From IMG/VR virus record IMGVR_UViG_3300021425_002620: DNA of 64,000 bases, one strand, 5' to 3'. The notes under the pieces were generated by a model, which worked only from the letters and a program-made list of their open reading frames with translations, made no database searches and was not told the DNA's origin. This DNA comes from a virus. Taxonomy: Duplodnaviria > Caudoviricetes. Position numbers and translations under genes: made by a program. Of the stretch, positions 30,060 to 64,000 are shown piece by piece (position 1 is the stretch's first letter; each line of letters starts with the position of its first letter).

Positions 30060-30066
30060 TATTTAT
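30060..30066 (-). promoter_or_regulatory. T4-type late promoter box for the fibre gene
   Basis: ATAAATA in the intergenic gap, followed by leader with AGGAG. Confidence 0.6.
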
Positions 30067-30079
30067 GCCAAACAGGAAA

Positions 30080-30995: not shown

Positions 30996-30997
30996 AA

Positions 30998-31246: not shown

Positions 31247-31285
31247 ATTAAATTTCTCCTTTGTTAATAATATATATGCGCAGTT

Positions 31286-31292
31286 TATTTAT
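31286..31292 (-). promoter_or_regulatory. T4-type late promoter box
   Basis: ATAAATA overlapping the stop of 31289..31567, leader with AAGGAG. Confidence 0.5.
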
Positions 31293-31567
31293 TTGTACTT
31301 CAAATGTGGACATGCCAACATGAAATAACTTGCTTCTTTTGGTTCTTCAAAACCAATTTTTATTACGTTAGTAATGCTACCGCTTTTTAAGTCGACATCT
31401 TTACTAACATAAAATCTTCCTTTTAAGTTTTCTTTAATCCATCTTGCTAAACTGTGTTCTATGTTGTAGACTGGCTCAACTGTAGTGACTTCGAAATGAG
31501 GCGGACAAAGATCTAATTGCCTCATTTCTAAAAAGTCTAATGGGTTTGGTTCTCGTTTTTTATTCAT
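31289..31567 (-). CDS. Hypothetical protein
   Basis: 92-aa ORF overlapping upstream stop. Confidence 0.7.
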   Translation of the reverse strand: MNKKREPNPLDFLEMRQLDLCPPHFEVTTVEPVYNIEHSLARWIKENLKGRFYVSKDVDLKSGSITNVIKIGFEEPKEASYFMLACPHLKYK

Positions 31568-32879: not shown

Positions 32880-32912
32880 GTGCTATGTCCTCTTTTCTAA
32901 CTTTATATGTAT

Positions 32913-32940
32913 ATTATACATTATTTACAGAATTTGTCAA
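32913..32940 (-). promoter_or_regulatory. sigma70-type promoter with nested TAAATA box
   Basis: TTGACA (32940-32935), 16 bp, TATAAT (32918-32913); TAAATA at 32927-32922. Confidence 0.7.
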
Positions 32941-32942
32941 CC

Positions 32943-32978
32943 ATAAAAATAAGGGCGAGCTCAAAAGAACCCGCCCTT
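32943..32978 (-). terminator. Rho-independent terminator between the MoxR and VWA genes
   Basis: Minus-strand AAGGGCGGGTTC-TTTT-GAGCTCGCCCTT 12-bp stem (two G-U pairs) followed by ATTTTTAT. Confidence 0.8.
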
Positions 32979-32985
32979 ACCGTTC

Positions 32986-51810: not shown

Positions 51811-52091
51811 TACCACCATTTCATAGCAACACCAAATCCGAGTACGTTAACAAATATAAACCAACCTGTTAACATCATTGGCCATGCTAGTTTGCGTCTG
51901 TAATATCCTAGTACTCCAAAAACACTACCTATAAAAAAGCCTGGATAAACTATACGCATATCAGGCGCATCTGCGGTAAGTGCTAATGAAGCACTGGCGG
52001 CTACTGTAAAAACAAAACTTAATAGTTCGTATCCAAATGCTATACGATCAGTCCGATAACTGTCGGCCCAAAACTCGTATATTTTTCTCAC
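51810..52091 (-). CDS. Small multi-pass membrane protein
   Basis: Three hydrophobic segments; GTGA overlap. Confidence 0.75.
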   Translation of the reverse strand: MRKIYEFWADSYRTDRIAFGYELLSFVFTVAASASLALTADAPDMRIVYPGFFIGSVFGVLGYYRRKLAWPMMLTGWFIFVNVLGFGVAMKWW

Positions 52092-52348
52092 TTGTCATAG
52101 CCTAATGTAGTAATAAGTGTTTCTAGATCGTCATATGCATCTGCATGACTTTCCCAATCACGTTTTTGTGCAATTTTAATTGCTTTATTAATTAGAGATG
52201 GTTTAATGTCCATTTCTTCTGCAACTGCTTTTACAGTTTCTTTTAATCCTGTATTAAGATCTTCAATCTCTTGTAATACAGTAACACCTTCTCTTACTAG
52301 TCTTTCTAATTTTTGCTTTTCGTCAGCACCGTAGGTACGAGATCCCAT
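52088..52348 (-). CDS. Small dsDNA-binding protein, T4 DsbA/GapR-like
   Basis: L.RLV.E...EIEDL...LKE.V......I.P..I.K.I helical pattern; own strong promoter. Confidence 0.5.
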   Translation of the reverse strand: MGSRTYGADEKQKLERLVREGVTVLQEIEDLNTGLKETVKAVAEEMDIKPSLINKAIKIAQKRDWESHADAYDDLETLITTLGYDK

Positions 52349-52407: not shown

Positions 52408-53040
52408 TTAAATGACTTTTATGTTATCAAAGGCACGATGCCAGCCAAAATGCTGTGCTTTGTAGTCTGATTGATCGTCGGAAGATAGTTTTTCCCATTC
52501 TGCTCGTCTTGCATTAAGCTCGTGAGCACCTTTATACCAGTTGGTATTTTCAATGATATGTTCAAGTTGTTCTTTTGCCTTATTTGCTTCTTCAAGTGTA
52601 TCAAAGTCTTGTTCAATGTGTATAACTTCCATTACAATGCCATGATCGATATAATCTAAACTAAAATCTATACCGTATTTAGGCTTTACTGCTAGTAACT
52701 TCTGTAATATTGGACGTTTAAATACTGCATCTTCTAATTGTTTTCTTGCTTCTCCTGCAAAAGCAAATCTTTGCAACAACATACAATGATCAAGAACTGG
52801 ACCTACTTCTGCATCTTCTTTATCAATATACCAAGGTATAACTGGTGCTACATGATACTGTATATCGTAATTTAGTTTGATACCTTGTGCTTCGTAGTAT
52901 GCACGTTCTAGAGGTGCAGGAACTTCATAGCCGTCTTTATCAAAATCTTTAAGGCTATATGTATCTATAAAATGTTGGGGTATAGGGTTGGTAAGTAAAA
53001 GTGACTCATTAAAACTGGCGTTTTGTTTAATAAGTTGCAA
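52408..53040 (-). CDS. Hypothetical protein
   Basis: 210-aa ORF, TTG start after AAGGAAG. Confidence 0.75.
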   Translation of the reverse strand: MQLIKQNASFNESLLLTNPIPQHFIDTYSLKDFDKDGYEVPAPLERAYYEAQGIKLNYDIQYHVAPVIPWYIDKEDAEVGPVLDHCMLLQRFAFAGEARKQLEDAVFKRPILQKLLAVKPKYGIDFSLDYIDHGIVMEVIHIEQDFDTLEEANKAKEQLEHIIENTNWYKGAHELNARRAEWEKLSSDDQSDYKAQHFGWHRAFDNIKVI

Positions 53041-53054
53041 TATTGCACTTCCTT

Positions 53055-53969
53055 TTATTTTTTTGCATCTAAGAGTCTGTATAGTTCATCTTTGATAGAC
53101 TCGTATGGTTGTCCTTTATGCTTTACTTTACCTGCTTTAGCATCTTTTTTCTTATCTTTGTGTGCGCCCATTGCACCACTTTTACGTAAGTCAGTCATAT
53201 ACTGAGCATTTGGATCGCGTGGTTTTAGACTTGGAACTTTTTTACCTTCTACAAGTGTTTCTATAATACCTTCAAGGTATGCTACTCTTGCTTCTAGTGC
53301 TTCTAATTTACCTTTGCCTGCTGCTGGATCAGTGAGTGTAAATTTACGACCGTTAACAGCAATAATTTGATCTCTACTAATGGCAAATGTTGCACCATTT
53401 AGTTCTAACTGTATTACATTTTTACCGTTAGTATCAAGATTCTTTAACATTTTAACTGCTGGTGCAGTACGTCTTTGACCTTTTTTATTAACATACGTAA
53501 TATCATCGCCTGCTTTTAGTGTGTAACCTTCGTCACTTGTAGGCATAGCACTTGGTTGTGCTTGTGCTGGTTGTTGTGCTGGTTGTTGTGCTGTTGGTTT
53601 TTTATCTTTGCCTTTAATTAAATCTTTAATTTGATCAACATCTGATTTTGGCTTCTTACCGTCAACTTGTGTATTAAGAGCATCTAGTTTGTTGTAGTTT
53701 TTAAAACCGTGCTTTAGTGCATCTAATGGTGTTGCTTCGTTAGTTTTTACACCAGCAAGGGCAGCAAAGTCACTTACACTATAATCTCTATCCATTTTCA
53801 ACGAACCTTCTGTAACTTCAGCATTCTCACGTAAGTAATCTTTGGTTGGTTCAACTGTTCCGGATGCCACCGAACCACCTTGTGCTACTTGCTGTAATTT
53901 TGCTAAATCTTCTCTTGGATCTGTTGGATCCAATTCAAAAAGTTTTTGCTGAAGTCTATGAAAGTCCAT
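53055..53969 (-). CDS. Putative virion-internal protein
   Basis: Modular, low-complexity QQPA repeats (12-nt unit x2.6 at 53563-53593), xxE-G/A junctions, basic C-terminal module. Confidence 0.55.
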   Translation of the reverse strand: MDFHRLQQKLFELDPTDPREDLAKLQQVAQGGSVASGTVEPTKDYLRENAEVTEGSLKMDRDYSVSDFAALAGVKTNEATPLDALKHGFKNYNKLDALNTQVDGKKPKSDVDQIKDLIKGKDKKPTAQQPAQQPAQAQPSAMPTSDEGYTLKAGDDITYVNKKGQRRTAPAVKMLKNLDTNGKNVIQLELNGATFAISRDQIIAVNGRKFTLTDPAAGKGKLEALEARVAYLEGIIETLVEGKKVPSLKPRDPNAQYMTDLRKSGAMGAHKDKKKDAKAGKVKHKGQPYESIKDELYRLLDAKK

Positions 53970-53973
53970 TAAC

Positions 53974-54465
53974 TTAGTTTCCGCCTTTGTTTGGACTTAT
54001 ATTTTTTGCTTTAATATTTTTTGCTGAAATCTTCTTTGTAGTAACTGCTTGTTCAGTTGCTTTTTTCTCAGCTAGTTTAGCATGTAAAGTATCTTTATAT
54101 TCTGATTCAGTCTTGCGAAGTTTCTTTTTACCACGCTTGCCACTTGCTTTTGCAGCATGTACCGCCTTACGATGTGCATCAGATTTAAATTTTCCTTCTG
54201 CAACTTCTTCACCTAGCTCACCTGTTGCTTCTTCGTAGTCTAGATGATGATATACACTGCCGATATAATCTGCTGACTTAGTAATTTTTGATTGAACCCA
54301 ACCTTCTAAGCCTTGTTCTTCGGATACACCTTTAAGCATGTCATGTAGTTTGATTGCATATTTTGCAATTTTATAAAGGTCTGAACGAGCCATTTGTACT
54401 TCGTGATCACGCTCTGCACGATCAGCTAGTTCGCCTAAACCTTCTTGTATTTCTGTTTTGTTCAT
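53974..54465 (-). CDS. Putative virion-internal protein
   Basis: MNKTEIQE-G N-terminus, VAE-G junction, Lys-rich tail. Confidence 0.55.
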   Translation of the reverse strand: MNKTEIQEGLGELADRAERDHEVQMARSDLYKIAKYAIKLHDMLKGVSEEQGLEGWVQSKITKSADYIGSVYHHLDYEEATGELGEEVAEGKFKSDAHRKAVHAAKASGKRGKKKLRKTESEYKDTLHAKLAEKKATEQAVTTKKISAKNIKAKNISPNKGGN

Positions 54466-54489
54466 TTATAATCTCCGGATCTTATATAC

Positions 54490-54496
54490 TATTTAT
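54490..54496 (-). promoter_or_regulatory. T4-type late promoter box
   Basis: ATAAATA over the upstream stop, leader with GGAG. Confidence 0.55.
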
Positions 54497-54828
54497 CTTT
54501 TGATAGGTTTGCCGCCCATGATATTATTTTTAACATCTAATGCATTTTTAGCAGTACCATCTGTATTTTTAACTTGTGGTGCTTTCGGCGCTCCGTATTT
54601 GCCCTTCTTTGTAGATTTAGCATGTGCATATGTTGGATTAACAACTGCGGCTATATTACCTGATGATGTTGCTCCTGCTGTTGCATCTTCTTTAACGTCT
54701 TCTGCATTACAATTACAGTGAGGACAGTCTGGTGGACATTTACAATCTTCTCTTTTTACGTCTGCTCCACAACATTTATCTGAACAATGTGTATCTCTTT
54801 TTTGTTCTAGTAATTCGCTTATTTTCAT
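54493..54828 (-). CDS. Putative virion-internal protein with Cys-rich segment
   Basis: MKISELLE-Q N-terminus, HCSDKCC...CKCPPDCPHCNC, VKE-DATAG junction. Confidence 0.6.
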   Translation of the reverse strand: MKISELLEQKRDTHCSDKCCGADVKREDCKCPPDCPHCNCNAEDVKEDATAGATSSGNIAAVVNPTYAHAKSTKKGKYGAPKAPQVKNTDGTAKNALDVKNNIMGGKPIKR

Positions 54829-54837
54829 TTTTCTTTC

Positions 54838-55074
54838 CTATCTCACAAATTGCTGTATTAGAAACATACAACTTAACATAAGTCCTAACAAACTAACTTG
54901 TAGTATAGAAAGACCTATAATAAGTTTTCCTTGTACATCTGCCCAATACTTTCCTTCTGTATTAATCCATTCCTTTTGTTCTTCCGGTGTGCAATCTCTA
55001 GGCTGCCAGATCATTCCAGGTTGTCTACCTGCTGTTTCATAAGGTGTGTAAAATTTCATTTCTGTTTGCTTCAT
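54838..55074 (-). CDS. Small membrane protein
   Basis: C-terminal hydrophobic helix. Confidence 0.65.
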   Translation of the reverse strand: MKQTEMKFYTPYETAGRQPGMIWQPRDCTPEEQKEWINTEGKYWADVQGKLIIGLSILQVSLLGLMLSCMFLIQQFVR

Positions 55075-55238
55075 TTTAAGTATTCTTTATAAGTTTTCCA
55101 ATAGTTTTGGCGTTCATTTGTGCTTGCTCGTCGAGCTTCATGTTCTTTAAGTTTTTTAATATAGTGACTTATATCTGTGTTATCTCTTGGATAAAGTTCT
55201 ACTATTTTTTCTTCCGTCCCGACTTCATATTTGCGCAC
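55071..55238 (-). CDS. Possible 55-aa protein, missing from the ORF track
   Basis: GTG/TTG start; ...ELYPRDNTDISHYIKKLKEHEARRASTNERQNYWKTYKEYLK; stop forms ATGA overlap with next gene and fills a 130-bp gap. Confidence 0.45.
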   Translation of the reverse strand: MRKYEVGTEEKIVELYPRDNTDISHYIKKLKEHEARRASTNERQNYWKTYKEYLK

Positions 55239-56773
55239 CAATGATACATCCTCGCTTTCTCACCTGAGTATTTTTTTGCTTTCTTACGTAAACTAGTTAC
55301 CGATCCTTTACAACTTGCACCAGCCTTTTTGACTCTACCAGGACGACTTTTGCCTTTTTTCTTTCCGTCAGCAAAATTTTCTGCAAGTTCAGCAACTTCA
55401 TCTGGCACTTCGAACTGCCATACAGTTGCTTTACTGTTCTGTGCCATCATTGCAGTAAGTCTTGTGTTACCACCTACAAGTTCTTTGTATCCGTCACTGT
55501 AAACAGCAACGATAGGCATTTCAACATCGCCACTTTTTAATTGTGCTAATGCTCTTGCTTGTTTGTTTTTATCTAAACTTTTAAATGAGTTAGGGTCTGC
55601 TGCATCTGTGTTATTAATATCTTTAGCACTTTTAATAGTTACTGCTTTGCCCTTCTTAGCAAGTTTAATCCATTCTTTTTTACCAAGTTTCTTAAACTCT
55701 GGATAGCGAGTTGCTTCTTCCCATTCTACATCAAACTTTGGTTTTACAAATTTTATACTGTTAGTAATATTTTCTTCTAGCCAACTTTCGTCTAACATAT
55801 CTTCTAATACAGCATCTGCCATGTGTACACGAGCATACTCTGCACCTGTTAAACGCAGTGCATCATATCTATGATGTCCGTTTACAATGCGTCCTTTTCG
55901 ATCAATTTGTAAAGGTGCATAATCGTCGTTTAAAACTTTTACTAACTGTCTGCCTAGTTTATGCCATTGACGTTCGCTTTGTACACTTTTTAATTTGTCT
56001 AATTTAATTTTTCCAAGAGGCCCGAACTTTTTAATTTGAGGAGGTGCTTCTCCACCTGTAGGTTTGTCATCAAAGTGTGCGTCTTTATAACCTTGTGCAT
56101 CTTGTACATCATATCCTATGCGTTTTAGTTGTTTCATAAGATACTTCATTTCTTTTTCACCAGCATATGGCGCAACCATTATATCTGGTTCATCAACATT
56201 ACCACCAGCTGGCACTGATTTTAAATTAGCCATATTAGTACCTAATTTAACAAAATCATATGCTGTATCTGATTTTGTTATGAAAGTATTGCTAGGATTT
56301 GGTATTAAAGAACCTTCGTTTGATACACTATCTATTGCTTTAGGACCGTCTGGATGTTTAGGATTTAAGACAACAGTTTCGCCATTCATTAGTTCTGAAA
56401 TGTTTGCTGCTTTACCTAAACTATCTAAAAGTCTATGTAATTTGTCTTTAGGATCGTAATTGCCGCTTTCGTAACCTTTTTTGCCACGAACTTCTACACG
56501 ATTCTTTCCTTTTTCTTTTATATGTAAAATATCGTAATCGTCCGTGCGTTCAAATTTTATAGCAACACTTTCAGTAAGTCCTAAATTAAACATAACGTTA
56601 GTTGACTTACCTTTGATTTTTTTGCTTAGTGTAGGAGGCCTTCCATCTTTGTCAACTTTGTTTCCAAACTTTGCAGCCTGTTTTTTGATCTCACCGGGAC
56701 CAACATCAGCAGTTTGATTTTGTTTAGTTATACGGCCAACGCCTGCTGCTTCTTTAATGTCGTCCCATCTCAT
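55202..56773 (-). CDS. Modular protein with two ParB/Srx-like domains, putative virion-internal polyprotein
   Basis: PLQIDRKGRIVNGHHRYDAL and PIVAVY...LVGGNTRLTAM; modules separated by LTE-S, LEE-N, LAE-N; MRWDDIKE-A N-terminus. Confidence 0.65.
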   Translation of the reverse strand: MRWDDIKEAAGVGRITKQNQTADVGPGEIKKQAAKFGNKVDKDGRPPTLSKKIKGKSTNVMFNLGLTESVAIKFERTDDYDILHIKEKGKNRVEVRGKKGYESGNYDPKDKLHRLLDSLGKAANISELMNGETVVLNPKHPDGPKAIDSVSNEGSLIPNPSNTFITKSDTAYDFVKLGTNMANLKSVPAGGNVDEPDIMVAPYAGEKEMKYLMKQLKRIGYDVQDAQGYKDAHFDDKPTGGEAPPQIKKFGPLGKIKLDKLKSVQSERQWHKLGRQLVKVLNDDYAPLQIDRKGRIVNGHHRYDALRLTGAEYARVHMADAVLEDMLDESWLEENITNSIKFVKPKFDVEWEEATRYPEFKKLGKKEWIKLAKKGKAVTIKSAKDINNTDAADPNSFKSLDKNKQARALAQLKSGDVEMPIVAVYSDGYKELVGGNTRLTAMMAQNSKATVWQFEVPDEVAELAENFADGKKKGKSRPGRVKKAGASCKGSVTSLRKKAKKYSGEKARMYHWCANMKSGRKKK

Positions 56774-56991
56774 TTTTTACGACTCCTAAGTCCGGGTGGA
56801 TATTCTTGGCCCTTCCAGTAAGGTCTACTAAACCAAAGTTTAAACCAATCTTCGTCACCTGGACGTAAATTCTTTTCTCTTTCTATACGTTGCTTTTCAG
56901 TACCTGTAACAGATATATTTTCTTGATAAGGAGTATATCCTTTAAACTCGTTAACACCTGCTAGTTTTTTAATGTACTCAAGCTCGTCCAT
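56770..56991 (-). CDS. Hypothetical protein
   Basis: 73-aa ORF with ATGA/TAATG overlaps; IKKLAGVNE motif. Confidence 0.7.
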   Translation of the reverse strand: MDELEYIKKLAGVNEFKGYTPYQENISVTGTEKQRIEREKNLRPGDEDWFKLWFSRPYWKGQEYPPGLRSRKK

Positions 56992-57929
56992 TATTTTTTA
57001 GCCATTTTAGTTGCTGTTGCATACATTACTGCTTCTGCATCTTTGCCATAACGCTTTTTAAAATCGCTTTTGTTTTTCTTCATGCCTTTAACATATTTTT
57101 CTTTATCTTTTTCTTCACCTTTAGAAAGTTCACGTTCAATAATTGCTAGTGCTTGTTTTATATCTTCTTTTGTTACAATATAACGTTTGCCTTTAGCTTT
57201 AATTTCTTTACCTGCAATATACTTTAGTAGTGCTGATAATTTTTCTACATCTTCTTCTCTGTTGACGTAGTCTTGAATCATATCTTTAATGTAGTTAATT
57301 AAACTACCTTTGTCTAGTATTAAGTCACCTTCTTCAACAGGTTCTACATCTTTTACACCCATGCCTTTGCGTACAGCATCATACATAGTTTGTGCTAGTT
57401 TCTTATCTGGTACACCTTGTGCAAATGTTTCTAATTCACCCGCAGCAGCCGCTGCTCTCATTTTGCTTGCACTCATGCCACTTACATCATCAGCATCTGG
57501 ATCACGTTCACCAGCACTTAGTACATTGATACTATCAAACTTAAACGGAACATTACCACTTTTATCAGGTTGACCGTTGTATGTATCAAATAATTTTTGG
57601 AATCCTGCTACACGATCACTTCCTGCTATAAAAATAACATCAGTATATCCTAAACCTTGTAACATTTCTAATGCTTGTACAGGTGTGCGTACACTTTCAT
57701 GACCAATGTTTATACCAGGAAAGAATTGTTTAGCAAACTTTAACTTCGTTGCAAAGTCTAGTGGATCTGTCTTAGGCTTTTGTGTTTGACTTAAGAATAG
57801 ATAATGATCGCCATCTTGCTTCTTGATAGCGTCTACTAATTTAGCATGACCTATTGTAGGTGGATTTAATCTACCAAATGCTAATACTGCTTGTTTTTTA
57901 GGTGCTTCGTATAACTCTCTTAATAACAT
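56991..57929 (-). CDS. HIGH-superfamily nucleotidyltransferase (phage cytidyltransferase/NMNAT-like)
   Basis: AFGRLNPPTIGH, IAGSDR, SAG.RD.D....GMSASKMR; start ATG 57929 (MLLRELYE-A). Confidence 0.85.
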   Translation of the reverse strand: MLLRELYEAPKKQAVLAFGRLNPPTIGHAKLVDAIKKQDGDHYLFLSQTQKPKTDPLDFATKLKFAKQFFPGINIGHESVRTPVQALEMLQGLGYTDVIFIAGSDRVAGFQKLFDTYNGQPDKSGNVPFKFDSINVLSAGERDPDADDVSGMSASKMRAAAAAGELETFAQGVPDKKLAQTMYDAVRKGMGVKDVEPVEEGDLILDKGSLINYIKDMIQDYVNREEDVEKLSALLKYIAGKEIKAKGKRYIVTKEDIKQALAIIERELSKGEEKDKEKYVKGMKKNKSDFKKRYGKDAEAVMYATATKMAKK

Positions 57930-57933
57930 TATC

Positions 57934-59034
57934 TTAATTAGGCTGCCAACGTGTTCTAGGTACAAGTTTAGTTTTGCTACCTAGTGCAACATATCCTTCA
58001 CCGCCTTTTTCTCCTCCTGTTGATGCTTTAACATCTGCATCAGCATTATCTAATTGATCTATAATACTATCTTTAGCAGTCATAACCTGCTTTATAAGAT
58101 CAAACATTTCTGGTAATGCTTTTGGATTAGCATCATTCATTGCTGCTAATTTTGCCTGTTGTCCTTGACTTACTTTACTAGTTTTTAACCAATCAAAAAA
58201 CCCTGTAGCAATCTTATCTAACTGCTGCGTACGAGTCATATGGTTCATATACGTATAAATTATTTGAGCTGGATTACTTAAACCTTGTGTACCTGCTAAA
58301 AATTGATCTATATCAGTTGCATACTTTTTAGCCTTTGCTCTTACAGCATCAACAACTTTAGTGTCTACATTTGGTTGATGTGTAACATATGTTTGTCCTA
58401 ATACTACTGCATCTTTTGAATTAAGTTCTGAAACATTTTCTATAGGGGTTCCTGATTTACTACCCCACTCTTCATACTTTTGATGTACTACTAAGCCTAC
58501 CTTAGACCCTGCTATACGCTTTCCTAAATCACTTGAAGGATCTACAGTATACTTTACTTTATTAGGTGTAAATTCTAAACCGTCGTTGCTTGATACAAAT
58601 GATTTACGTGGACTGTATAGTAAGTCACCGTATACGTAACCTCTAAAGTTAGGTGGTGTTGAATTTTTCATTACATCAAAAATTTCAGCCATTTCTTGAC
58701 CAAACTCTTTACGCCATGGTTCTTCTTCTACACCTTTACCTGAATTTTGAATAAAACGTGATAAATCCTGTGACGATGTTGATTTGTTTTTGCCCCAACC
58801 GTTTTTACCTACAAGTACAAATGTACCATCAGGTTCACGTCCCCAATAAATTGTTGGATTGCCGTCCCACTTAATAGCAACATCTCCGCTGTCGCTACCT
58901 AGTTTTTCTAGTATGTCTGCTGCTTCTAAAGCACCTTTAGATCCTTTAACAAATACCAAATCCTCAAGATGCTGATATTCGCGCCCAACTTTTGCTGCTT
59001 CGGTTAGAACGTGACGGAATTCAGCAAAGCGCAT
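57934..59034 (-). CDS. RNA-ligase-like covalent nucleotidyltransferase fold protein
   Basis: Motif I IKWDG, motif III YGDLL, motif IV EGYV, motif V KLV; MRFAEF..VLTE-A N-terminus. Confidence 0.6.
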   Translation of the reverse strand: MRFAEFRHVLTEAAKVGREYQHLEDLVFVKGSKGALEAADILEKLGSDSGDVAIKWDGNPTIYWGREPDGTFVLVGKNGWGKNKSTSSQDLSRFIQNSGKGVEEEPWRKEFGQEMAEIFDVMKNSTPPNFRGYVYGDLLYSPRKSFVSSNDGLEFTPNKVKYTVDPSSDLGKRIAGSKVGLVVHQKYEEWGSKSGTPIENVSELNSKDAVVLGQTYVTHQPNVDTKVVDAVRAKAKKYATDIDQFLAGTQGLSNPAQIIYTYMNHMTRTQQLDKIATGFFDWLKTSKVSQGQQAKLAAMNDANPKALPEMFDLIKQVMTAKDSIIDQLDNADADVKASTGGEKGGEGYVALGSKTKLVPRTRWQPN

Positions 59035-59369
59035 TAGTACTCTCCTGACTCTAGTTTTGGCATTTCCTCGTCATAAAGTTTTTCAATGATAGCATCTTCA
59101 TCTTCTTTTGTAAAGACACTTTGCGGATTGGCTGCGACATTAAATTTAGCACAATAATCTTTAATTGCACTTTTTATCATAGGTCTTGTGTTTGCTACAA
59201 AGTTACAATCATTGCCTTTAATGCTTTCGTCTTGCATTTTAACCATACAAGGGTAATAAGACTTGCGATAAAAATTAGGATCGTTTTTCATAAAGACCAT
59301 TAGGTCGTCAGTAACACTAAATGGTAATTCTTTTTCAAACTTTTTGCTAGTAAATTCATCTATACGCAT
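59034..59369 (-). CDS. Hypothetical protein, putative virion-internal
   Basis: True start ATG 59369 (MRIDEF...), directly after upstream stop. Confidence 0.7.
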   Translation of the reverse strand: MRIDEFTSKKFEKELPFSVTDDLMVFMKNDPNFYRKSYYPCMVKMQDESIKGNDCNFVANTRPMIKSAIKDYCAKFNVAANPQSVFTKEDEDAIIEKLYDEEMPKLESGEY

Positions 59370-59370
59370 A

Positions 59371-59940
59371 TTACCACTTCCTACATGACCAGTATCTTGC
59401 TTTTGTTCTTGGACCTGGATTATCACAGTTGTGTCTAGCACGGAATGAACGTCTACGTGCTGGGTTAGACTTTTTAATCTTCATGTTAGGATCGCCAAAG
59501 TTTACTTTTTTTACATTCTTAGTCTTTGGATCTCTAACATATACTTTAAATTTTTTAACATCTCCACGCATAGGTTTACCAAGTTTAACTTTACGTCCTT
59601 GATATTCTGCTTCGTCCATTTCGTCGTCATCATTGTACCACATTACACCATATTCTTCAAAGAAATCATCTCCGTCATATGTTTCTTCAATAATTTCTTC
59701 ATCAAGGTCTGTACTAATTTCTATATCAAAATCGTCAAATCCATTTTCAAACATATAGTTTGCTAGTCTTTCAGCATATTCTTCTGCTTCATCTTCTGAA
59801 AGCTCTCTCGCTAACGGTATTTGATAGGCGCTTGCACCTTGATCTGTTTCAAGTAATTCGTTACCTGGAAAGATAGATTCGTCTAAGTTTTCAGTTATGC
59901 TATCGTCTTTTTCAAATATTACTCTTACAAAATGTTCCAT
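59371..59940 (-). CDS. Acidic-N/basic-C two-part protein, putative virion-internal
   Basis: Very acidic first 110 aa, then DE-AEYQGRKV...VNFGDPNM...RRSFRARHNC...ARYWSC..W. Confidence 0.7.
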   Translation of the reverse strand: MEHFVRVIFEKDDSITENLDESIFPGNELLETDQGASAYQIPLARELSEDEAEEYAERLANYMFENGFDDFDIEISTDLDEEIIEETYDGDDFFEEYGVMWYNDDDEMDEAEYQGRKVKLGKPMRGDVKKFKVYVRDPKTKNVKKVNFGDPNMKIKKSNPARRRSFRARHNCDNPGPRTKARYWSCRKW

Positions 59941-59949: not shown

Positions 59950-60738
59950 TTATAAGCCTTGGAGTTGTGTTACTAAATCATTTAGTGCATCTGATATACT
60001 TTGTGGATCTGTTTCGTCACCAATAGTTACGCTAAGGGTTGAAAAATCAACACCACTGCCGCCGCCACCTAGTAGTCCTGTATTATCTGTTAGTTCGCTT
60101 ATGTCTGTTGGTACTGTAGGCGCTGTATATTCAAATGTAAATACACCTGTAGTATTATCATATGATAAACTTGCACCAGCATCGGAAGTATCTGTTACAC
60201 TAAGATCAGTTAGTGCAATGCCACCTCCTGCACCAGTTTGATCTGCTACCCACTGGTAATCTGCCCCAGTCCAACTTAGTATTTGACCGCTAGTTGCAGT
60301 GCTTGTATTTAAGAGACTATTTACACTAGAATCTCCATAACTAGCAGCATCAGGATCAACATTTACAAATGAACCACTTGCATTATCAAACGCAAGTATT
60401 TGCCCGTCGCTTACACTAGTAATGTTTACATCTGCTAAATCTTCTAATTGACTAGGAACACTTGGAGCACCTGTTAAGTCTGCATATAGTCCACTAAACA
60501 ATGTAGGTCTATTAAGTAAATTATTATAATCGCCATTAAATGTATTTGCTGTAAGAGCATATACAGAAAGGTCTGGTTTGTTTGTTAGGCTGTTGTAGTC
60601 ACCATCAAAGGATTGAAGGCCACCTAGATTAACATAGACTTCATCAAAATTATCATTTACTTTACTAAATGCTGTGCGGAGACTTTCACCGTCGCCTGCA
60701 TAGTCTGTTGATCCTATATTAATTATTTTTTGTGCCAT
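59950..60738 (-). CDS. Baseplate/fibre structural protein with gp9/gp10-like N-terminus
   Basis: INIGS....GDGESLRTAF.KVNDNFDEVY resembles T4 gp9/gp10 N-termini; three F(D/N/S)G.Y..L...P repeats. Confidence 0.7.
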   Translation of the reverse strand: MAQKIINIGSTDYAGDGESLRTAFSKVNDNFDEVYVNLGGLQSFDGDYNSLTNKPDLSVYALTANTFNGDYNNLLNRPTLFSGLYADLTGAPSVPSQLEDLADVNITSVSDGQILAFDNASGSFVNVDPDAASYGDSSVNSLLNTSTATSGQILSWTGADYQWVADQTGAGGGIALTDLSVTDTSDAGASLSYDNTTGVFTFEYTAPTVPTDISELTDNTGLLGGGGSGVDFSTLSVTIGDETDPQSISDALNDLVTQLQGL

Positions 60739-60749: not shown

Positions 60750-61172
60750 TTAATAGTTCAACATTATACTGTCAACTGTTCCGTTTGTCCAGTTTCCTAG
60801 TATTGCTCTAACCCAAACATAGTTTCCTACAAAATTATAGTTAGCATTTATATTACTACTAGAATACGAAAGATCAGTTAATGTAATACTTTCTCCTACC
60901 GATATAGCACCTGTTGTATCAACAGTTCCTTGTACACTTGTATTGGTTTGTAATGTAATATCAAACCAATCTCCTTCTGAAGGATCAACTTCTAATGACC
61001 CTTGCATCTTTATCTCTCCAGAAAATCCGTTTAAATTAATTTGGACAGTATGAAATCCGTCTGCACGGCCATAATATCCGTCAGCTTTAAACTTATCTCC
61101 AGTGTATGATTGTACTGTGCTATCATCTGGATGTGTTTGTGTTGGTACTATTGTTTTACTATTATTCGGCAT
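60750..61172 (-). CDS. Hypothetical beta-rich protein, probably structural
   Basis: ATG 61172 5 nt after ATAAATA; beta-strand rich composition. Confidence 0.65.
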   Translation of the reverse strand: MPNNSKTIVPTQTHPDDSTVQSYTGDKFKADGYYGRADGFHTVQINLNGFSGEIKMQGSLEVDPSEGDWFDITLQTNTSVQGTVDTTGAISVGESITLTDLSYSSSNINANYNFVGNYVWVRAILGNWTNGTVDSIMLNY

Positions 61173-61176
61173 ACTA

Positions 61177-61845
61177 TTATTTATCAATATCTTGCTTACA
61201 TACTAATTTATCTATTCGCCGAATAGAAGGTGCAATCATTAATTTTATAAGATTTAAAACACGTTCGTCACGAGCATAAAAATAATAATTTGCACAGTGT
61301 AGAGATTCACGAATTGCATCTCTACATACAACACCCATTTTTACTTTATCTTCGTTTTTATCTAACCAAGTGTTAAATCCAGGATCAACATTATAGTCTC
61401 CAAATGTAATTTTATAGTCATAACCAGTATGTTCGTCAACTATAATTGTATTTGGCACAACATGTTTAACAAGTTCTTTAGGCGGCGCCGAAAAACTTAT
61501 AGGATCAGAAATTTTAGTTGCAAATAATAATAACCAAGATTTGTCATTGCTGTATACATGTACACTAGGGTGCTCGATCCTTATTTTATAATCAACATTT
61601 GTATTTTTAAGTTCGTGATATATTGCAACACATTCATAAAATATATGAGGTTCTATAGTAAACTGACGGTAGCCGGTAGATCTAACTAACGGCATACCTT
61701 TTTCTGATCTATGATAAAGTTCGTCTAATACTTCTTTAGCATAATTAAAATTTTTATCTCTAAAAATTGTTGCTAGAGAGTTACGAAAAACAAATTTGTA
61801 AAGATATTTGTTATAGAACAGTTTATTTGATTCAGATTGTAACAA
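61177..61845 (-). CDS. Hypothetical protein
   Basis: 222-aa ORF overlapping the clpA stop. Confidence 0.7.
   Translation of the reverse strand: MLQSESNKLFYNKYLYKFVFRNSLATIFRDKNFNYAKEVLDELYHRSEKGMPLVRSTGYRQFTIEPHIFYECVAIYHELKNTNVDYKIRIEHPSVHVYSNDKSWLLLFATKISDPISFSAPPKELVKHVVPNTIIVDEHTGYDYKITFGDYNVDPGFNTWLDKNEDKVKMGVVCRDAIRESLHCANYYFYARDERVLNLIKLMIAPSIRRIDKLVCKQDIDK
61178..61184 (-). promoter_or_regulatory. T4-type late promoter box, leaderless arrangement
   Basis: ATAAATA then 5 nt (atagt) then ATG at 61172. Confidence 0.65.
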
Positions 61846-64000
61846 GGGATTCCTCTACACACTCTAGTAATAGACTGTCAGAATCCTCTGTAGTTGTAAC
61901 AGTTACAGTTCCGCCATTTTTCAAATTACCAAACAGTAGTTCTTTTGATAGCGGTCTTTTAATTTCGTTATCAATAACACGCTGTAAAGGTCTTGCACCC
62001 ATTTTAGGATCAAATCCTTTGTCTACTAAGTAGTCGAGTGCTTCATCTGAAACTTTAATATTAACTCCTTTGTCTGTAACCATTTTTCTAAGTTCGACAA
62101 GAAACTTACCAACAATTTTAAGCATAACTTCTTTGTTCAACTTACCAAATGTAATTACACCATCTAGTCTATTTCGAAATTCTGGACTGAAGAACTTTTT
62201 AAGTTCAGTATCTTCGTAGTCTTTTTCAACTTCTTCGTTAAAGCCAATAGCATTTTTGTCTGCATCTTTGGCTCCAAGATTAGTTGTAAGAATCAAAATA
62301 GCATTTCTTGCATCAGCTTCTTTACCATTTGATCCTGTAACTTTACCATTGTCCATAATTTGTAGCAAAATTTGAGAAACATCTGGATGTGCTTTTTCAA
62401 TCTCATCTAATAGCAATACACAATTAGGACTTTCTTGTAATTTTGTAATTAACTGGCCTGCATTGTCTTCAAAACCTACATAACCCGGAGGCGAACCAAT
62501 TAATTTAGCAACTGAATGCTTTTCTTGATATTCACTCATATCAAATCGAACTAATTTAACACCTAGTTGAGTTGATAGTTGCTTTGCAGTTTCTGTTTTA
62601 CCTACACCTGTTGGACCCATAAATACAAATGAACCTACAGGCTTGTCATCAGGTTTCAAACCTGCTTGTGCAACTAGAATTTTATCAACAATATTATCAA
62701 TTGCTTCATCTTGACCGTACACTTCTGCTTTAAGATTTACTTCAAGATTAGCAAGTCCTGAAGTTTCTTTTTCAGCAATGTTTTCAACAGGCATATTAAT
62801 CATTTTAGCCAGTTCGAACTGTACTTCTTCTTCAGTTACTAACTTTTCAACTTCGGGGTCTTTTAGTTTAAATCTTGCACATGCAACATCAATAAGGTCA
62901 ATTGCTTTATCTGGTAACTTTTTATCACTTTGATATTTAATTGATAGTTTGACTGCCGCTTCGATTGCTTGTTCGGTAATACCGGTGCTATGAAATTCTT
63001 CGTAATACTTTTTAATACCACGTAAGATGTCTTTAGTTACTTCCGGAGTTGGCTCGTCGACAGTTACACGTTGGAATCTACGCATCAATGCACGATCCTT
63101 TTCAAAAGTTTTGCGATATTCTTCCCAAGTTGTACTTGCTACAACTTTAATATCACCTTTTGATAGTGCAGGTTTTAGCATATTTGCTAAATCATTTGTT
63201 TTGTCGCCACCACCGGCTCCGGCACCGTTCATCATGTGTGCTTCATCAATGAACATTACAGTCTTGCCTTTTTTCTGTAATGCTTTAATGACAAGTTTTA
63301 AACGTTCTTCAAAATCACCTCTATACTTTGAACCTGCAAGCATTGCGCCGATGTCAAGATTGTATACTTCGTACTCTTGTAGGAACGGAGGAACATTATC
63401 ATTAACAATATTATAAGCAAGGCCTTCAGCAATAGCAGTTTTACCAACACCAGGATCGCCTACAAGGATAACATTGTTTTTATTACGGCGTCCTAATGCC
63501 AAGGCAATACTTTCTAATTCTTCAGCACGACCAATAATTGGATCAATCTTATCTTTATTTGCTTCTTCGTTTAAGTTAGTTGTAAATGCACGTAGAGCTT
63601 TTTGCATTGCTCCAGACATTTCTTCGTCTTCAATTTCGTTTTCAACTTCTGAACTAATATATTCACTAAATGTTTCTTTTGAAACACCTGCCTTTTCAAT
63701 CCAGTAAGTTGCAATAGATTTTTTCTCGTTAAGAACACTTAGAAAAACATCACTTAGTTCTATGTTATTTCTTCCAATAAACAAAACTTGTGTAAAGGCC
63801 CTGTTTAAAACACGCTCAACTGTTTGTGTTTTTTTAGGTTTCCATTTTTTAATCTCAGGATCCATTTTAATATCATCGCACTGAGTTTTTAGATAATTTT
63901 CAAGATTGCTTTTAATAAAAACAGGATCTGCACCATACCCTTTAATAATAGTTTCAAAAGATGAATGACACATTAGAGCAAACACAAGATGCTCTAGTGT
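61832..64000 (-). CDS. clpA: ClpA/ClpB-family Hsp100 ATPase (start lies beyond the window)
   Basis: Two AAA+ modules GDPGVGKT/FIDE and GPTGVGKT/LLDE, RFDMSEY, GARPL; frame stays open to base 64000 (TLEHLVFAL, Clp N-domain); no long ClpB middle domain. Confidence 0.9.
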   Translation of the reverse strand, partial: TLEHLVFALMCHSSFETIIKGYGADPVFIKSNLENYLKTQCDDIKMDPEIKKWKPKKTQTVERVLNRAFTQVLFIGRNNIELSDVFLSVLNEKKSIATYWIEKAGVSKETFSEYISSEVENEIEDEEMSGAMQKALRAFTTNLNEEANKDKIDPIIGRAEELESIALALGRRNKNNVILVGDPGVGKTAIAEGLAYNIVNDNVPPFLQEYEVYNLDIGAMLAGSKYRGDFEERLKLVIKALQKKGKTVMFIDEAHMMNGAGAGGGDKTNDLANMLKPALSKGDIKVVASTTWEEYRKTFEKDRALMRRFQRVTVDEPTPEVTKDILRGIKKYYEEFHSTGITEQAIEAAVKLSIKYQSDKKLPDKAIDLIDVACARFKLKDPEVEKLVTEEEVQFELAKMINMPVENIAEKETSGLANLEVNLKAEVYGQDEAIDNIVDKILVAQAGLKPDDKPVGSFVFMGPTGVGKTETAKQLSTQLGVKLVRFDMSEYQEKHSVAKLIGSPPGYVGFEDNAGQLITKLQESPNCVLLLDEIEKAHPDVSQILLQIMDNGKVTGSNGKEADARNAILILTTNLGAKDADKNAIGFNEEVEKDYEDTELKKFFSPEFRNRLDGVITFGKLNKEVMLKIVGKFLVELRKMVTDKGVNIKVSDEALDYLVDKGFDPKMGARPLQRVIDNEIKRPLSKELLFGNLKNGGTVTVTTTEDSDSLLLECVEESLVTI

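What the first reader, a model, noticed from the sequence alone, without database searches (positions are those of the whole stretch)
53055..59940. Cluster of cargo proteins with T4-like capsid-targeting N-termini and internal Glu cleavage junctions
Seen: consecutive genes start MRIDEF, MRFAEFRHVLTE-A, MLLRELYE-A, MRWDDIKE-A, MKISELLE-Q, MNKTEIQE-G, and contain module borders LTE-S, LEE-N, LAE-N, VKE-D, VAE-G, LVE-G, MDE-A; two share LAGV-x1-3-NE. No gene outside this block starts this way. Known: T4 internal proteins use a ~10-aa sequence such as MKTYQEFIAE that directs encapsidation and is removed by the gp21 protease after Glu. Inference: these are head-packaged polyproteins, cut into modules and injected with the DNA, a ready-made first-minute anti-defence kit that here includes enzymes.
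Basis: partly seen in the sequence, partly recalled or inferred. Interest (0 to 1): 0.78.

Follow-up and report, generated by a model that had tools for sequence, protein, structure and literature searches.

The report
Capsid-targeting leader tags on phage cargo
A marine jumbo phage with T4-like core genes has a late-gene block of mostly unrelated proteins, some enzyme-like, that start with a short tag resembling the one phage T4 uses to load proteins into its head; their modules are joined at motifs that match head-protease cut sites, so they are probably head-packaged cargo, though no experiment shows this.

Summary
Eight of the 11 genes at 53055-59940 (minus strand) start M-x-x-x-[D/E]-hydrophobic, against 0 of 76 true starts elsewhere in the window. 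The codons differ, so the signal is at protein level.

The reading as T4-like capsid-targeting leaders plus prohead-protease junctions is supported by comparison only:
- A matrix built from 120 marine leaders ranks T4 gp24, IPI, IPIII, IPII and Alt within the top 18 of 250 T4 ORFs.
- In related head modules, the small gene after the portal (the place of T4 gp67/68) carries the motif in 29 of 30 loci. Other genes carry it in 21 of 854.
- Natural length variants and fusions break exactly at hydrophobic-x-Glu junctions.
- In 41 of 43 long proteins with an internal DUF6267 domain, such a junction lies just before the domain (21% expected).
- The block follows virion genes behind late-type promoter boxes.

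Packaging, cleavage, injection and an anti-defence role remain untested. No head genes lie in the window.

The scan has reported similar leader-tagged clusters in other T4-like phage genomes. Verdict: a new variant of a known kind.

The parts
61178..61184 (-). Late-promoter-like box ATAAATA, 5 nt before the ATG at 61172
   Evidence: The same box with the same spacing precedes the homologous gene in relative G001. In G008 and G001 this box precedes portal, tube, sheath and fibre genes. Exact TATAAATA is depleted in the window, 3 found against 11.9 expected.
60750..61172 (-). 140-aa virion structural protein, first gene of the putative late operon
   Evidence: phrog_14467 'virion structural protein', E 3e-11.
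59950..60738 (-). 262-aa fibre or baseplate-like protein, directly upstream of the block
   Evidence: Tail-fibre and baseplate phrogs 9729, 677 and 958. Its N-terminus is like the fibre genes of G001.
59371..59940 (-). 189-aa protein: an acidic 110-aa N-part (pI 4.1), junction MDE|A, then a 79-aa basic KKFKV module (pI 11.1)
   Evidence: The basic module is a stand-alone 79-90 aa protein starting MAKYQGR in Pelagibacter phages Kolga and HTVC202P.
59034..59369 (-). 111-aa protein with leader MRIDEF
   Evidence: The same leader family occurs in G001 and other loci.
57934..59034 (-). 366-aa DUF6267 protein, ligase-like. Leader residues 1-12, MRFAEFRHVLTE|A, correspond to nt 59034-58999.
   Evidence: Pfam PF19782, E 6e-28. 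AlphaFold model pLDDT 94.6, with only residues 1-12 below 50. Invariant K55-x-D57-G58. VIA-align top matches are RNA and DNA ligases, Z 5-6.3. The leader is conserved in 80 loci.
56991..57929 (-). 312-aa cytidylyltransferase-like HIGH nucleotidyltransferase with leader MLLRELYE|A and extra C-terminal modules
   Evidence: phrog_3041 E 5e-51 and phrog_395 E 2.5e-35. Leaderless homologues in other phages. Fused to ParB and other modules in L089.
56770..56991 (-). 73-aa protein starting MDELEYIKKLAGVNE|F, which carries the scaffold-C-terminus-like motif
   Evidence: The G008 homologue gave weak support for binding the MCP.
55202..56773 (-). 523-aa modular protein: leader MRWDDIKE|A, several modules including two ParB/Srx-like ones, and a basic tail after LAE|NFADGKKK
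   Evidence: phrog_620, E 1.5e-5. Natural 387-aa and 456-aa variants differ by whole modules removed or replaced exactly at MLDE|, LAE|N and G(L/M)TE|.
55071..55241 (-). 56-aa ORF with a TTG start; membership of the block is doubtful
   Evidence: It is called as a gene in only some relatives.
54838..55074 (-). 78-aa protein starting MKQTEM, with a hydrophobic C-terminal segment and no hydrophobic-x-Glu site
54493..54828 (-). 111-aa Cys-rich protein with leader MKISELLE|Q
   Evidence: The cyanophage ACG-2014e counterpart starts MKTFRQLRED.
54490..54496 (-). Second late-promoter-like box ATAAATA, 24 nt before the ATG at 54465, with GGAG in between
   Evidence: A box is conserved before the G001 homologue.
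53974..54465 (-). 163-aa basic protein with leader MNKTEIQE|G
   Evidence: Homologous domain in a 615-aa leader protein of G008.
53055..53969 (-). 304-aa basic protein with MDFHRLQQKLFE|L, the motif SDFAALAGVKTNE and a basic C-terminal module
   Evidence: Variants of 300, 418 and 518 aa exist in relatives.

Best explanation
The block is a late-expressed set of prohead-targeted proteins of a marine jumbo phage with a T4-like core.

Proposed mechanism:
1. Each protein starts with a short amphipathic leader, roughly M-(K/R)-hydrophobic-x-(E/D)-hydrophobic, usually ending in hydrophobic-x-Glu. The leader works like the T4 capsid-targeting sequence and carries the protein into the scaffolding core of the prohead.
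2. A gp21-type head maturation protease then cuts after Glu. This removes leaders and acidic pro-pieces and separates the modules of multi-module proteins.
3. Mostly basic mature products stay in the head with the DNA. They include a ligase-like DUF6267 enzyme, a HIGH-type nucleotidyltransferase, ParB/Srx-like modules and small basic proteins.
4. Two proteins also carry the peptide that ends this clade's scaffold protein (D/E-hydrophobic-K-K-LAG-hydrophobic). This may be a second handle on the capsid shell.

Shown here: the motif and its restriction to the block; its likeness to T4 leaders; its presence on a head-module gene in relatives; module exchange at the junctions; the late-type promoter boxes.

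Inferred: targeting, cleavage, retention in the virion, ejection into the host, and what the enzymes do there.
For: 1. The motif is specific to the block: 8 of 11 genes against 0 of 76 true starts outside. The codons are not conserved.

2. In the 236-kb relative G001 about 12 of 347 genes carry the strict motif. In the 223-kb relative G008, 12 of 202 do. By my own rough estimate from amino-acid frequencies, chance would give about 0.5. The genes sit in a few clusters.

3. A position matrix built only from 120 marine leaders was scored on 250 ORFs of T4 (first 150 kb). It ranks gp24 #2, IPI #6, IPIII #8, IPII #9, alt.-1 #15 and Alt #18. The T4 leaders and the role of gp21 are described in PMC9026906 and PMC5694885.

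4. Head modules of the clade were found with an MCP alignment in 80 IMG/VR loci. The first gene after the portal, where T4 has gp67/68, starts MILRELFYF, MKLLEFFYF and the like in 29 of 30 loci. Other genes there carry the motif in 21 of 854.

5. G008 holds a portal, a gp21-type protease (E 2e-42 to S-PM2 gp21), scaffold and MCP together with a DUF6267 homologue and leader clusters. The protease of L166 matches phrog_207 at 8e-56.

6. Junctions:
- The 523-aa protein and its 387-aa and 456-aa natural variants differ by whole modules bounded by MLDE|, LAE|N and G(L/M)TE|.
- L089 fuses the nucleotidyltransferase with ParB modules through ITE|, TNE|, LNE|N and VKE|N.
- Among leader families, alignment breakpoints carry hydrophobic-x-Glu in 31 of 92 starts (7.7 expected) and 20 of 71 ends (7.8 expected).

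7. Among 124 diverse DUF6267 representatives, 16 start directly with the domain. Of 65 with short N-extensions, 56 have hydrophobic-x-Glu 5-16 residues before the anchor His. Of 43 with an internal domain, 41 do, against a null of 21%.

8. In the AlphaFold model of the window's DUF6267 protein only residues 1-12, exactly the leader, fall outside the confident fold.

9. Known protease substrates in the clade show the same site type: the MCP has the conserved ALLE|GL, and T4 gp23 has FLTE|A.

10. Scaffold proteins end ..IDIKRLAGL in 80 of 80 loci. The same motif occurs in the window only in the 73-aa and 304-aa block proteins.

11. Complex prediction on the G008 MCP and the G008 homologue of the 73-aa protein gave weak support: score 0.59, best of 3 controls 0.01. 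That mark was reached by 58 of 80 solved complexes and 2 of 110 mismatched pairs. At 0.60 or under it was reached by only 7 of those 80 and by both mismatches that passed. The runs agree in at least 40% of contacts, and the partner's pLDDT is at least 51.

12. ATAAATA boxes precede virion genes in G008 and G001, and precede the same two genes in the window and in G001. The two genes just upstream of the block are virion proteins.
Against: - No portal, protease, scaffold or MCP lies in the window, in G001 or in five other large related contigs. The window's genome was not available. The protease is therefore inferred from relatives whose DUF6267 is only 28% identical.
- The enzymes occur without leaders, beside replication genes, in T4-like cyanophages, Rak2-like KP13-7 and PA5oct-like MIJ3. 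The block itself abuts DsbA and the DNA polymerase.
- Some leader proteins have no early hydrophobic-x-Glu with a hydrophobic P3 (the MRIDEF protein, the MKLNELI family). The 78-aa protein has none at all.
- The T4 test is not clean. rI.-1, td, dda and 61.1 also score high, while gp21, gp22, gp23 and gp68 score low.
- The motif and the junction windows were defined after seeing the data, and related sequences are not independent.
- The unrestricted breakpoint test showed no enrichment at alignment starts: 34 of 548 against 55.5 expected.
- Vibrio phage 2.275.O, the closest cultured phage by MCP (65-74% identical to the clade's MCPs; 46% by DNA polymerase), has no leader genes between its MCP and its polymerase.
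- No virion proteome is known for any homologue. Searches of the paper library for 'DUF6267' and 'cytitidyltransferase' returned no papers.
Confidence: 0.6

Rival explanations
1. The leader and the hydrophobic-x-Glu junctions are only the conserved N-terminal helix and inter-domain linkers of a fast-shuffling set of cytoplasmic accessory proteins in a hyperplastic region. They have no role in capsid targeting or proteolysis. The likeness to T4 leaders would be convergence of short K/E-rich amphipathic N-termini in AT-rich phages.
For: - Homologous enzymes in cyanophages, KP13-7 and MIJ3 lack leaders and sit in replication modules.
- The block is next to the DNA polymerase.
- Hydrophobic-x-Glu is short and common.
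- Non-head T4 proteins also score high with the matrix.
Against: - This does not explain why the same motif heads the post-portal head-module gene in 29 of 30 loci.
- It does not explain why leaderless DUF6267 proteins lack the hydrophobic-x-Glu while 41 of 43 internal copies have it.
- It does not explain the scaffold C-terminal motif in two block proteins, the late boxes and virion genes upstream, or leader residues 1-12 lying outside the fold.
Confidence: 0.22
2. The leader is a recognition sequence for a modifying enzyme, for instance one of the many radical-SAM enzymes of this phage, as in RiPP-like systems where one maturase serves many tagged substrates.
For:
- An earlier follow-up on another phage (e1-127136) concluded that a shared N-terminal tag was linked to a radical-SAM enzyme and not to capsid sorting.
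Against: - The leader clusters are not next to radical-SAM genes. In the window they are more than 30 kb apart.
- In G008 the two radical-SAM hits lie at 123-125 kb, while the leader clusters lie at 0.3-8, 34-39, 64-69 and 173 kb.
- G001 has about 12 leader genes and no radical-SAM hit on 236 kb.
- T4 has similar leaders. From my own knowledge, it has no such maturase.
- The leaders have no conserved Cys, Ser or Thr target.
Confidence: 0.06
3. The leader is a tag read by the phage's own chaperone or unfoldase set, timing the folding or turnover of these proteins. The window has a ClpA/B-like ATPase at 61832-63985. A DnaJ homologue lies beside it on the near-identical contig L002, and earlier notes name clpP, clpS and dnaK elsewhere in the genome.
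For: A Clp-type ATPase lies 2 kb upstream of the block in the window, and on L002 and G001 it sits next to DnaJ.
Against: - The tag starts with Met-Lys/Arg, which is not an N-end-rule residue.
- Nothing links the motif to Clp adaptors.
- The motif also occurs on the head-module gene and in T4, which lacks these Clp genes.
Confidence: 0.04
4. Chance, or an artefact of start-codon choice in an AT-rich genome.
For: The pattern was defined after the fact, and two starts had to be moved to internal ATGs.
Against: - Both moved starts sit directly after the upstream stop codon.
- The counts are 8 of 11 inside against 0 of 76 outside.
- The leaders are conserved across 80 loci at 66-86% protein identity and in representatives at 30-56% identity.
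Confidence: 0.02

Closest known systems
Phage T4 capsid-targeting sequences on the internal proteins IPI, IPII, IPIII and on Alt, removed by the gp21 prohead protease; gp24 carries a similar gp21-cleaved N-terminal propeptide (Mullaney & Black 1996; reviews PMC9026906, PMC3012670, PMC5694885)
   Same: - A short N-terminal leader of similar pattern: T4 has MKTYQEFIAE|A, MKTFKEF..ITE|A, MAKINELLRE|S and MELITELFDE|D; here MRFAEFRHVLTE|A, MKISELLE|Q and MLLRELYE|A.
- The leader ends at hydrophobic-x-Glu.
- It sits on otherwise unrelated, mostly basic proteins, including an enzyme (Alt in T4).
- The cargo is variable behind a conserved leader.
- Paralogous enzymes occur with and without a leader (from my own knowledge, Alt against ModA/ModB in T4).
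   Different: - No sequence homology to IPI-III or Alt.
- The acidic residue sits one position earlier (position 5, not 6).
- There are many more tagged families per genome (a dozen or more).
- Multi-module proteins have internal junctions, and modules are exchanged at those junctions.
- Two cargo proteins carry an additional scaffold-C-terminus-like motif.
- Nothing has been shown experimentally.
Propeptide-bearing inner-body and ejection proteins of phiKZ, 201phi2-1 and SPN3US, cut by a gp21-related protease at (S/A)-x-E (PMC5694885, PMC10052503)
   Same: - Jumbo phages that load many proteins, including enzymes, into the head.
- Cleavage after Glu at a three-residue motif.
- Several cut sites per precursor.
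   Different: - Those phages have long propeptides (about 80-130 aa) and a small residue at P3. Here the leaders are short and T4-like, with a hydrophobic P3.
- The phage clade is different: a T4-like core, not chimalliviruses.
Scaffold C-terminal coat-binding peptides (P22-type) and encapsulin cargo-loading peptides (from my own knowledge)
   Same: A short conserved peptide, here D/E-hydrophobic-K-K/R-LAG-hydrophobic. It ends the clade's scaffold protein and recurs in cargo proteins, as if used to dock onto the inside of an HK97-fold shell.
   Different: - Binding is only weakly supported by one prediction.
- In the cargo proteins the motif is N-terminal or internal, not C-terminal.
- No structure or experiment exists.
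Pfam DUF6267 (PF19782) and the covalent nucleotidyltransferase (RNA/DNA ligase, capping enzyme) superfamily
   Same: - PF19782 hit at E 6e-28.
- Invariant KxDG, an EG motif and late lysines.
- The best structural matches are RNA and DNA ligases.
   Different: - No significant sequence match to any solved structure.
- Structural Z is only 5-6.3.
- Substrate and activity are unknown.

Membership tests
T4-type capsid-targeted internal head proteins (CTS plus gp21 processing) | N-terminal leader of about 10-19 residues with the conserved CTS-like pattern | tested here: met
   Found on 8 of 11 block genes. A matrix from 120 marine leaders ranks T4 gp24, IPI, IPIII, IPII and Alt within the top 18 of 250 T4 ORFs.
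T4-type capsid-targeted internal head proteins (CTS plus gp21 processing) | The leader ends at the protease motif, hydrophobic-x-Glu followed by a small residue | tested here: met
   LTE|A, LYE|A, IKE|A, LLE|Q and IQE|G at residues 8-12. The MRIDEF protein and the 78-aa protein are exceptions.
T4-type capsid-targeted internal head proteins (CTS plus gp21 processing) | The same genome encodes a gp21-type prohead protease and a scaffolding core | tested here: inconclusive
   Not in the window, G001 or five other contigs, and the genome was not held. Present in relatives G008 and L166 and in Vibrio phage 2.275.O.
T4-type capsid-targeted internal head proteins (CTS plus gp21 processing) | Expressed late, together with head assembly | tested here: inconclusive
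   ATAAATA boxes lie at 61184-61178 and 54496-54490. They are conserved before the homologues in G001, and the same box precedes virion genes in G001 and G008. This is motif evidence only, with no transcript data.
T4-type capsid-targeted internal head proteins (CTS plus gp21 processing) | The protein is present in virions with the leader removed | not testable with these tools
   Needs virion mass spectrometry. No proteome of a homologue was found in the literature searches.
T4-type capsid-targeted internal head proteins (CTS plus gp21 processing) | Sequence homology of the mature part to IPI, IPII, IPIII or Alt | tested here: not met
   The Pfam and PHROG scans give other families or none. 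The block works like the T4 internal-protein set but is not made of its homologues.
DUF6267 (PF19782) | Match to the Pfam model above its gathering score | tested here: met
   98.6 bits against a cut-off of 27, E 6e-28, residues 21-362.
Covalent nucleotidyltransferases (RNA/DNA ligases, capping enzymes) | Motif I KxDG with the catalytic lysine, plus motifs IV (EG) and V (K) | tested here: met
   K55, D57, G58, K321 and K356 are invariant, and W56, E346 and G347 nearly invariant, in 70 sequences.
Covalent nucleotidyltransferases (RNA/DNA ligases, capping enzymes) | Adenylyltransferase fold | tested here: inconclusive
   Foldseek against the PDB gave no hit at E <= 0.001. In VIA-align, 24 of the top 25 entries are ligases or capping enzyme, but at Z 5-6.3, rmsd 4.2-6.0 Å, over 142-191 aligned residues.
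Cytidylyltransferase-like HIGH nucleotidyltransferases | Family profile match and the H-x-G-H motif after the first strand | tested here: met
   phrog_3041 E 5e-51 and phrog_395 E 2.5e-35. The sequence reads ..FGRLNPPTIGHAKL. Pfam gave no hit at E <= 0.01.
ParB/Srx-fold domains | Profile match to a ParB-like family | tested here: inconclusive
   phrog_620 E 1.5e-5 over only 37 residues, and phrog_8071 E 0.003. There was no Pfam hit.

The most novel reading that the evidence does not exclude
Marine jumbo phages with a T4-like core run a two-handle cargo-loading system. One handle is an N-terminal T4-like targeting leader. The other is a mimic of the scaffold protein's C-terminal peptide (D/E-hydrophobic-K-K-LAG-hydrophobic) that docks on the capsid protein. 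Cargo is encoded as polyproteins whose modules (ligase-like, nucleotidyltransferase, ParB-like and small basic DNA-binding units) are swapped between genes precisely at head-protease sites. The protease motif would then be both the processing signal and the evolutionary joint of a very large, exchangeable pool of injected proteins. The DUF6267 search alone returned 1000 representative clusters at E <= 0.001; among the 124 best-scoring anchored ones, 108 carry an N-terminal extension or upstream modules and 16 start directly with the domain.
Probability: 0.3. Interest if true: 0.8.

Novelty: new variant of a known kind. Interest (0 to 1): 0.62.

Why it matters
If these proteins are really loaded into the head and injected, several things follow:
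- T4's capsid-targeting principle would be ancient. It would be shared by a large group of uncultured marine and freshwater jumbo phages.
- These phages would deliver a much richer pre-made protein set than T4 does, including ligase-like and nucleotidyl-transferring enzymes.
- Cargo could be predicted from sequence alone, using the leader plus hydrophobic-x-Glu junctions.
- Hundreds of 'hypothetical' phage proteins and the orphan family DUF6267 would gain a working context.
- New short tags would be available for packaging foreign proteins into phage heads.
- The scaffold-like LAG motif gives a concrete, testable docking peptide.

Tried and rejected
- **Whole genome:** none is held for this window.
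- **Head genes near the block:** Pfam Peptidase_S77 and Gp23 searches on G001 and two other records found nothing, and the controls did not ring either, so this is uninformative. phmmer and tblastn with S-PM2 and Vibrio 2.275.O head proteins found none in the window, G001 or the DUF6267 loci. PHROG scans of ten G001 candidates gave fibres, helicase and ligase, not head genes.
- **Walking off the end of G001:** a 190-kb contig (L114) was reached, but it cannot be searched because the record is not held. The first G001 gene is not on record.
- **Literature:** 'DUF6267' and 'cytitidyltransferase' returned no papers. No cyanophage or jumbo-phage virion proteome mentioning these families was found.
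- **Profile search of solved structures with the DUF6267 alignment:** no hit at E <= 1. Foldseek against the PDB gave nothing at E <= 0.001.
- **Unrestricted breakpoint statistic over all 1460 proteins:** no enrichment at alignment starts. This is largely explained by my ORF caller extending N-termini, so the test was repeated on leader families only.
- **DNA-level explanation (recombination cassette or translation box):** rejected, because the codons differ.
- **Exact TATAAATA near the block:** none. Only the 7-mer ATAAATA is present.
- **Radical-SAM tag idea:** No neighbourhood link was found.

Full report
**What the window is.** The 64-kb window is AT-rich (GC about 0.30-0.40). It carries a family-B DNA polymerase whose best matches are jumbo phages with a T4-like core: Sinorhizobium phage Phosso, Vibrio phage 2.275.O, Agrobacterium phage Atu_ph07 and Rak2-like phages, at 43-50% identity. 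It also has a sliding clamp, a flap endonuclease, a DsbA-like gene, a ClpA/B-like ATPase and a large radical-SAM island. No whole genome is held. The same block occurs almost identically on several short metagenome contigs.

**The observation.** All block genes lie on the minus strand and are tightly packed. Two starts are ATG codons that follow the upstream stop directly.
- The pattern M-x-x-x-[D/E]-hydrophobic fits 8 of 11 block genes and none of 76 true starts elsewhere in the window.
- I chose the pattern after seeing the block, so the Fisher p of about 1e-7 is optimistic. The contrast is still stark.
- The codons behind the motif differ, so selection acts on the peptide and not on a DNA cassette.
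- The block proteins are mostly basic, pI 9-9.6. The 189-aa protein is a 110-residue acidic part (pI 4.1) joined at MDE|A to a 79-residue very basic module (pI 11.1). That module exists as a stand-alone small protein in Pelagibacter phages.

**The motif beyond the window.** A search of viral contigs with the DUF6267 protein returned 80 loci at 66-86% identity.
- The leader MR(F/Y/W)xE(F/I)(R/K)..LTE|A is kept throughout.
- In some variants small modules are inserted between the leader and a retained hydrophobic-x-Glu|AAKVGREY junction. One is a Cys knuckle, another a basic GGGKAAD..KKKRGKHP piece.
- In a 236-kb relative (G001) about 12 of 347 genes carry the strict motif, in a few clusters. 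One cluster is syntenic with the window's block.
- In a 223-kb relative (G008), 12 of 202 genes carry it.
- In all, 120 distinct leaders were collected.

**Likeness to T4, measured.** I fetched 150 kb of the T4 genome and read the N-termini of its head proteins:
- IPII and IPIII: MKTYQEFIAE|A
- IPI: MKTFKEF...ITE|A
- gp24: MAKINELLRE|S
- Alt: MELITELFDE|D
- gp23 maturation site: FLTE|A

A position matrix built only from the marine leaders, allowed to slide by up to two residues, ranks gp24 second, IPI 6th, IPIII 8th, IPII 9th, alt.-1 15th and Alt 18th among 250 T4 ORFs. It does not pick out gp21, gp22, gp23 or gp68, and a few non-head T4 proteins also score high. The likeness is therefore to the T4 capsid-targeting class of leaders, with imperfect specificity. 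The reviews PMC9026906 and PMC5694885 describe these leaders. They are 10-19 residues long, they target proteins to the prohead core, and gp21 removes them by cutting after Glu.

**Link to head assembly in this clade.** The window and G001 contain no head genes.
- Vibrio phage 2.275.O has a gp21-type protease, a scaffold (MSKLEQLLKE|S) and an MCP (MSQLLTE|S..KLTE|G) 10 kb from its polymerase.
- An MCP alignment retrieved 80 head-module loci at 65-74% MCP identity. Their order is portal, small gene, two further genes, protease (phrog_207, E 8e-56), scaffold, MCP.
- The small gene after the portal, where T4 has the core proteins gp67 and gp68, starts MILRELFYF, MKLLEFFYF, MLLNEFFYF or MKLFEMF. 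29 of 30 such genes fit the core motif, against 21 of the other 854 genes in these loci.
- G008 combines this head module with a DUF6267 homologue and leader clusters.
- The MCP has a conserved ALLE|GL near its N-terminus.

**Junctions.**
- The 523-aa protein has natural variants of 387 and 456 residues. They differ by one whole module removed between MLDE| and LAE|N, and one module replaced after G(L/M)TE|.
- In L089 the nucleotidyltransferase is fused, through ITE|, TNE|, LNE|N and VKE|N, to modules that belong to the 523-aa protein in the window.
- Among leader families, alignment breakpoints coincide with hydrophobic-x-Glu far more often than expected: 31 of 92 starts against 7.7, and 20 of 71 ends against 7.8. 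The unrestricted test was negative for starts, largely because of start-codon artefacts.
- The search of 1.84 billion representatives gave the cleanest result. DUF6267 domains that start a protein directly have no such motif (16 cases). With a short extension, 56 of 65 have it 5-16 residues before the anchor His, and 42 of 65 begin with a leader. When the domain is internal to a long protein, 41 of 43 have it, against 21% expected.
- The AlphaFold model of the window's protein (pLDDT 94.6) leaves exactly residues 1-12 outside the confident fold.

**The LAGV motif.** In all 80 head loci the scaffold protein ends with ..(V/I)(I/V)D(I/L)(K/R)(R/K)LAG(L/I). In the proteomes of the window, G001 and G008, a motif of this type occurs only in the 73-aa family (MDELEYIKKLAGVNEF), the 304-aa family (SDFAALAGV) and the G008 scaffold. 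A 96-aa MRIDEI protein of relatives ends ..NIKALAGLTK. A complex prediction of the G008 MCP with the G008 homologue of the 73-aa protein gave weak support:
- Score 0.59; best of 3 controls 0.01.
- The mark was reached by 58 of 80 solved complexes and 2 of 110 mismatched pairs. At 0.60 or under it was reached by only 7 of those 80 and by both mismatches that passed.
- The runs agree in at least 40% of contacts, and the partner's pLDDT is at least 51.

I treat this as a lead only.

**Timing.** Exact TATAAATA is depleted in the window, 3 found against 11.9 expected. On the minus strand between 52 and 64 kb the 7-mer ATAAATA occurs only twice. One copy lies 5 nt before the ATG at 61172. The other lies 24 nt before the ATG at 54465, with GGAG in between. 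In G001 the same two homologous genes have the box. In G001 and G008 the box precedes portal, tube, sheath and fibre genes. The two genes between the first box and the block are a virion structural protein and a fibre or baseplate-like protein. The block is therefore probably part of late, virion-gene transcription units. This rests on motif evidence only.

**What the cargo is.**
- DUF6267 has an invariant KxDG and further ligase-type motifs. Its best structural matches are RNA and DNA ligases at modest Z of 5-6.3, with no significant sequence or Foldseek match.
- The next gene is a HIGH-type, cytidylyltransferase-like nucleotidyltransferase.
- The two are neighbours in T4-like cyanophages and are fused in PHROG 455.
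- Long metagenomic proteins fuse DUF6267 behind an 'EGGNVFK' domain. That domain is the gene directly upstream of DUF6267 in G001.
- Their substrates are unknown, and an anti-defence role is a guess.

**Against the reading.**
- The enzymes are leaderless in cyanophages, KP13-7 and MIJ3, and sit beside replication genes there.
- The block abuts the polymerase.
- Some leaders lack an early cut site.
- The protease is inferred from relatives.
- No virion proteome exists for any homologue.

**Novelty and verdict.** T4's targeting leaders and the Glu-specific processing in phiKZ-like phages are well known. Three things seem new: a T4-type leader system in this uncultured jumbo-phage clade with a dozen or more tagged families per genome; modular proteins whose units are exchanged at the protease motif; and the reuse of the scaffold's C-terminal peptide. 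I found none of this in the paper library. The scan itself has reported similar leader-tagged clusters in other T4-like phage genomes. I rate it a new variant of a known kind. My confidence is 0.6 that these are prohead-targeted, protease-processed proteins.

Noticed in passing
L118-L197 (head-module loci) and G008 174951-176051: The scaffold protein of this jumbo-phage clade ends with a nearly invariant peptide ..VIDIKRLAGL in 80 of 80 loci. It may be the coat-binding end of the scaffold. T4 and S-PM2 gp22 end differently.
   Followed up: partly
T4 genome (L109, L110): genes 61.1, rI.-1 and 57B: T4 gp61.1 starts MKTFKEFIKED, almost the IPI leader. rI.-1 (MKFSDFSQ) and 57B (MMEFKDFS) also score high with the marine leader matrix. 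They may be unrecognised CTS-type proteins, or they show the limit of the motif's specificity.
   Followed up: no
window 59371-59606: The basic KKFKV...RRSFRARHNC module shares about 70-76% nucleotide identity with genes of Pelagibacter phages (Aegir, Kolga, HTVC202P), a roseophage and a Nitrosopumilaceae spindle-shaped virus. That is unusually wide sharing across virus types. In Kolga and HTVC202P it sits near head and packaging genes.
   Followed up: partly
window 56998-57114: The C-terminal module ..YGKDAEAVMYATATKMAKK of the nucleotidyltransferase shares about 74% nucleotide identity with stretches annotated as hypothetical proteins in several Synechococcus phages. It matches phrog_12788 and phrog_727. 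It looks like a promiscuous C-terminal tail of unknown role.
   Followed up: no
P0150-P0231 (representatives) and G001 95921-97893: DUF6267 is often fused behind a roughly 230-290 aa 'EGGNVFK' domain. In G001 that domain is the gene directly upstream of DUF6267. PHROG 455 fuses DUF6267 with the cytidylyltransferase. The three probably act in one pathway.
   Followed up: partly
window 61172-61184; G001 and G008: In several genes the late-type box ATAAATA lies exactly 5 nt before the ATG, with no Shine-Dalgarno sequence. Examples are window 61172, G001 199761 and the G008 portal. This suggests leaderless late mRNAs, as earlier notes on this genome also proposed.
   Followed up: partly
window 52088-52348: An 86-aa gene resembles the gene annotated DsbA (double-stranded DNA binding) in Pseudomonas phage MIJ3. 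In the window it lies between the block and the DNA polymerase. MIJ3 has the same order: cytidylyltransferase, DsbA, polymerase.
   Followed up: partly
G001 29794-33145: In G001, a 720-aa ORF (29794-31956) and the overlapping 423-aa ORF that matches S-PM2 tail sheath gp18 (31874-33145) look like one sheath gene split in two. The cause could be a frameshift, an assembly error or a real split.
   Followed up: no
window 52408-53040: The 210-aa gene after the block starts at TTG without a leader. Its G001 homologue starts MRLQDLYPKF, a strict leader. Leaders are therefore gained or lost between close relatives.
   Followed up: no
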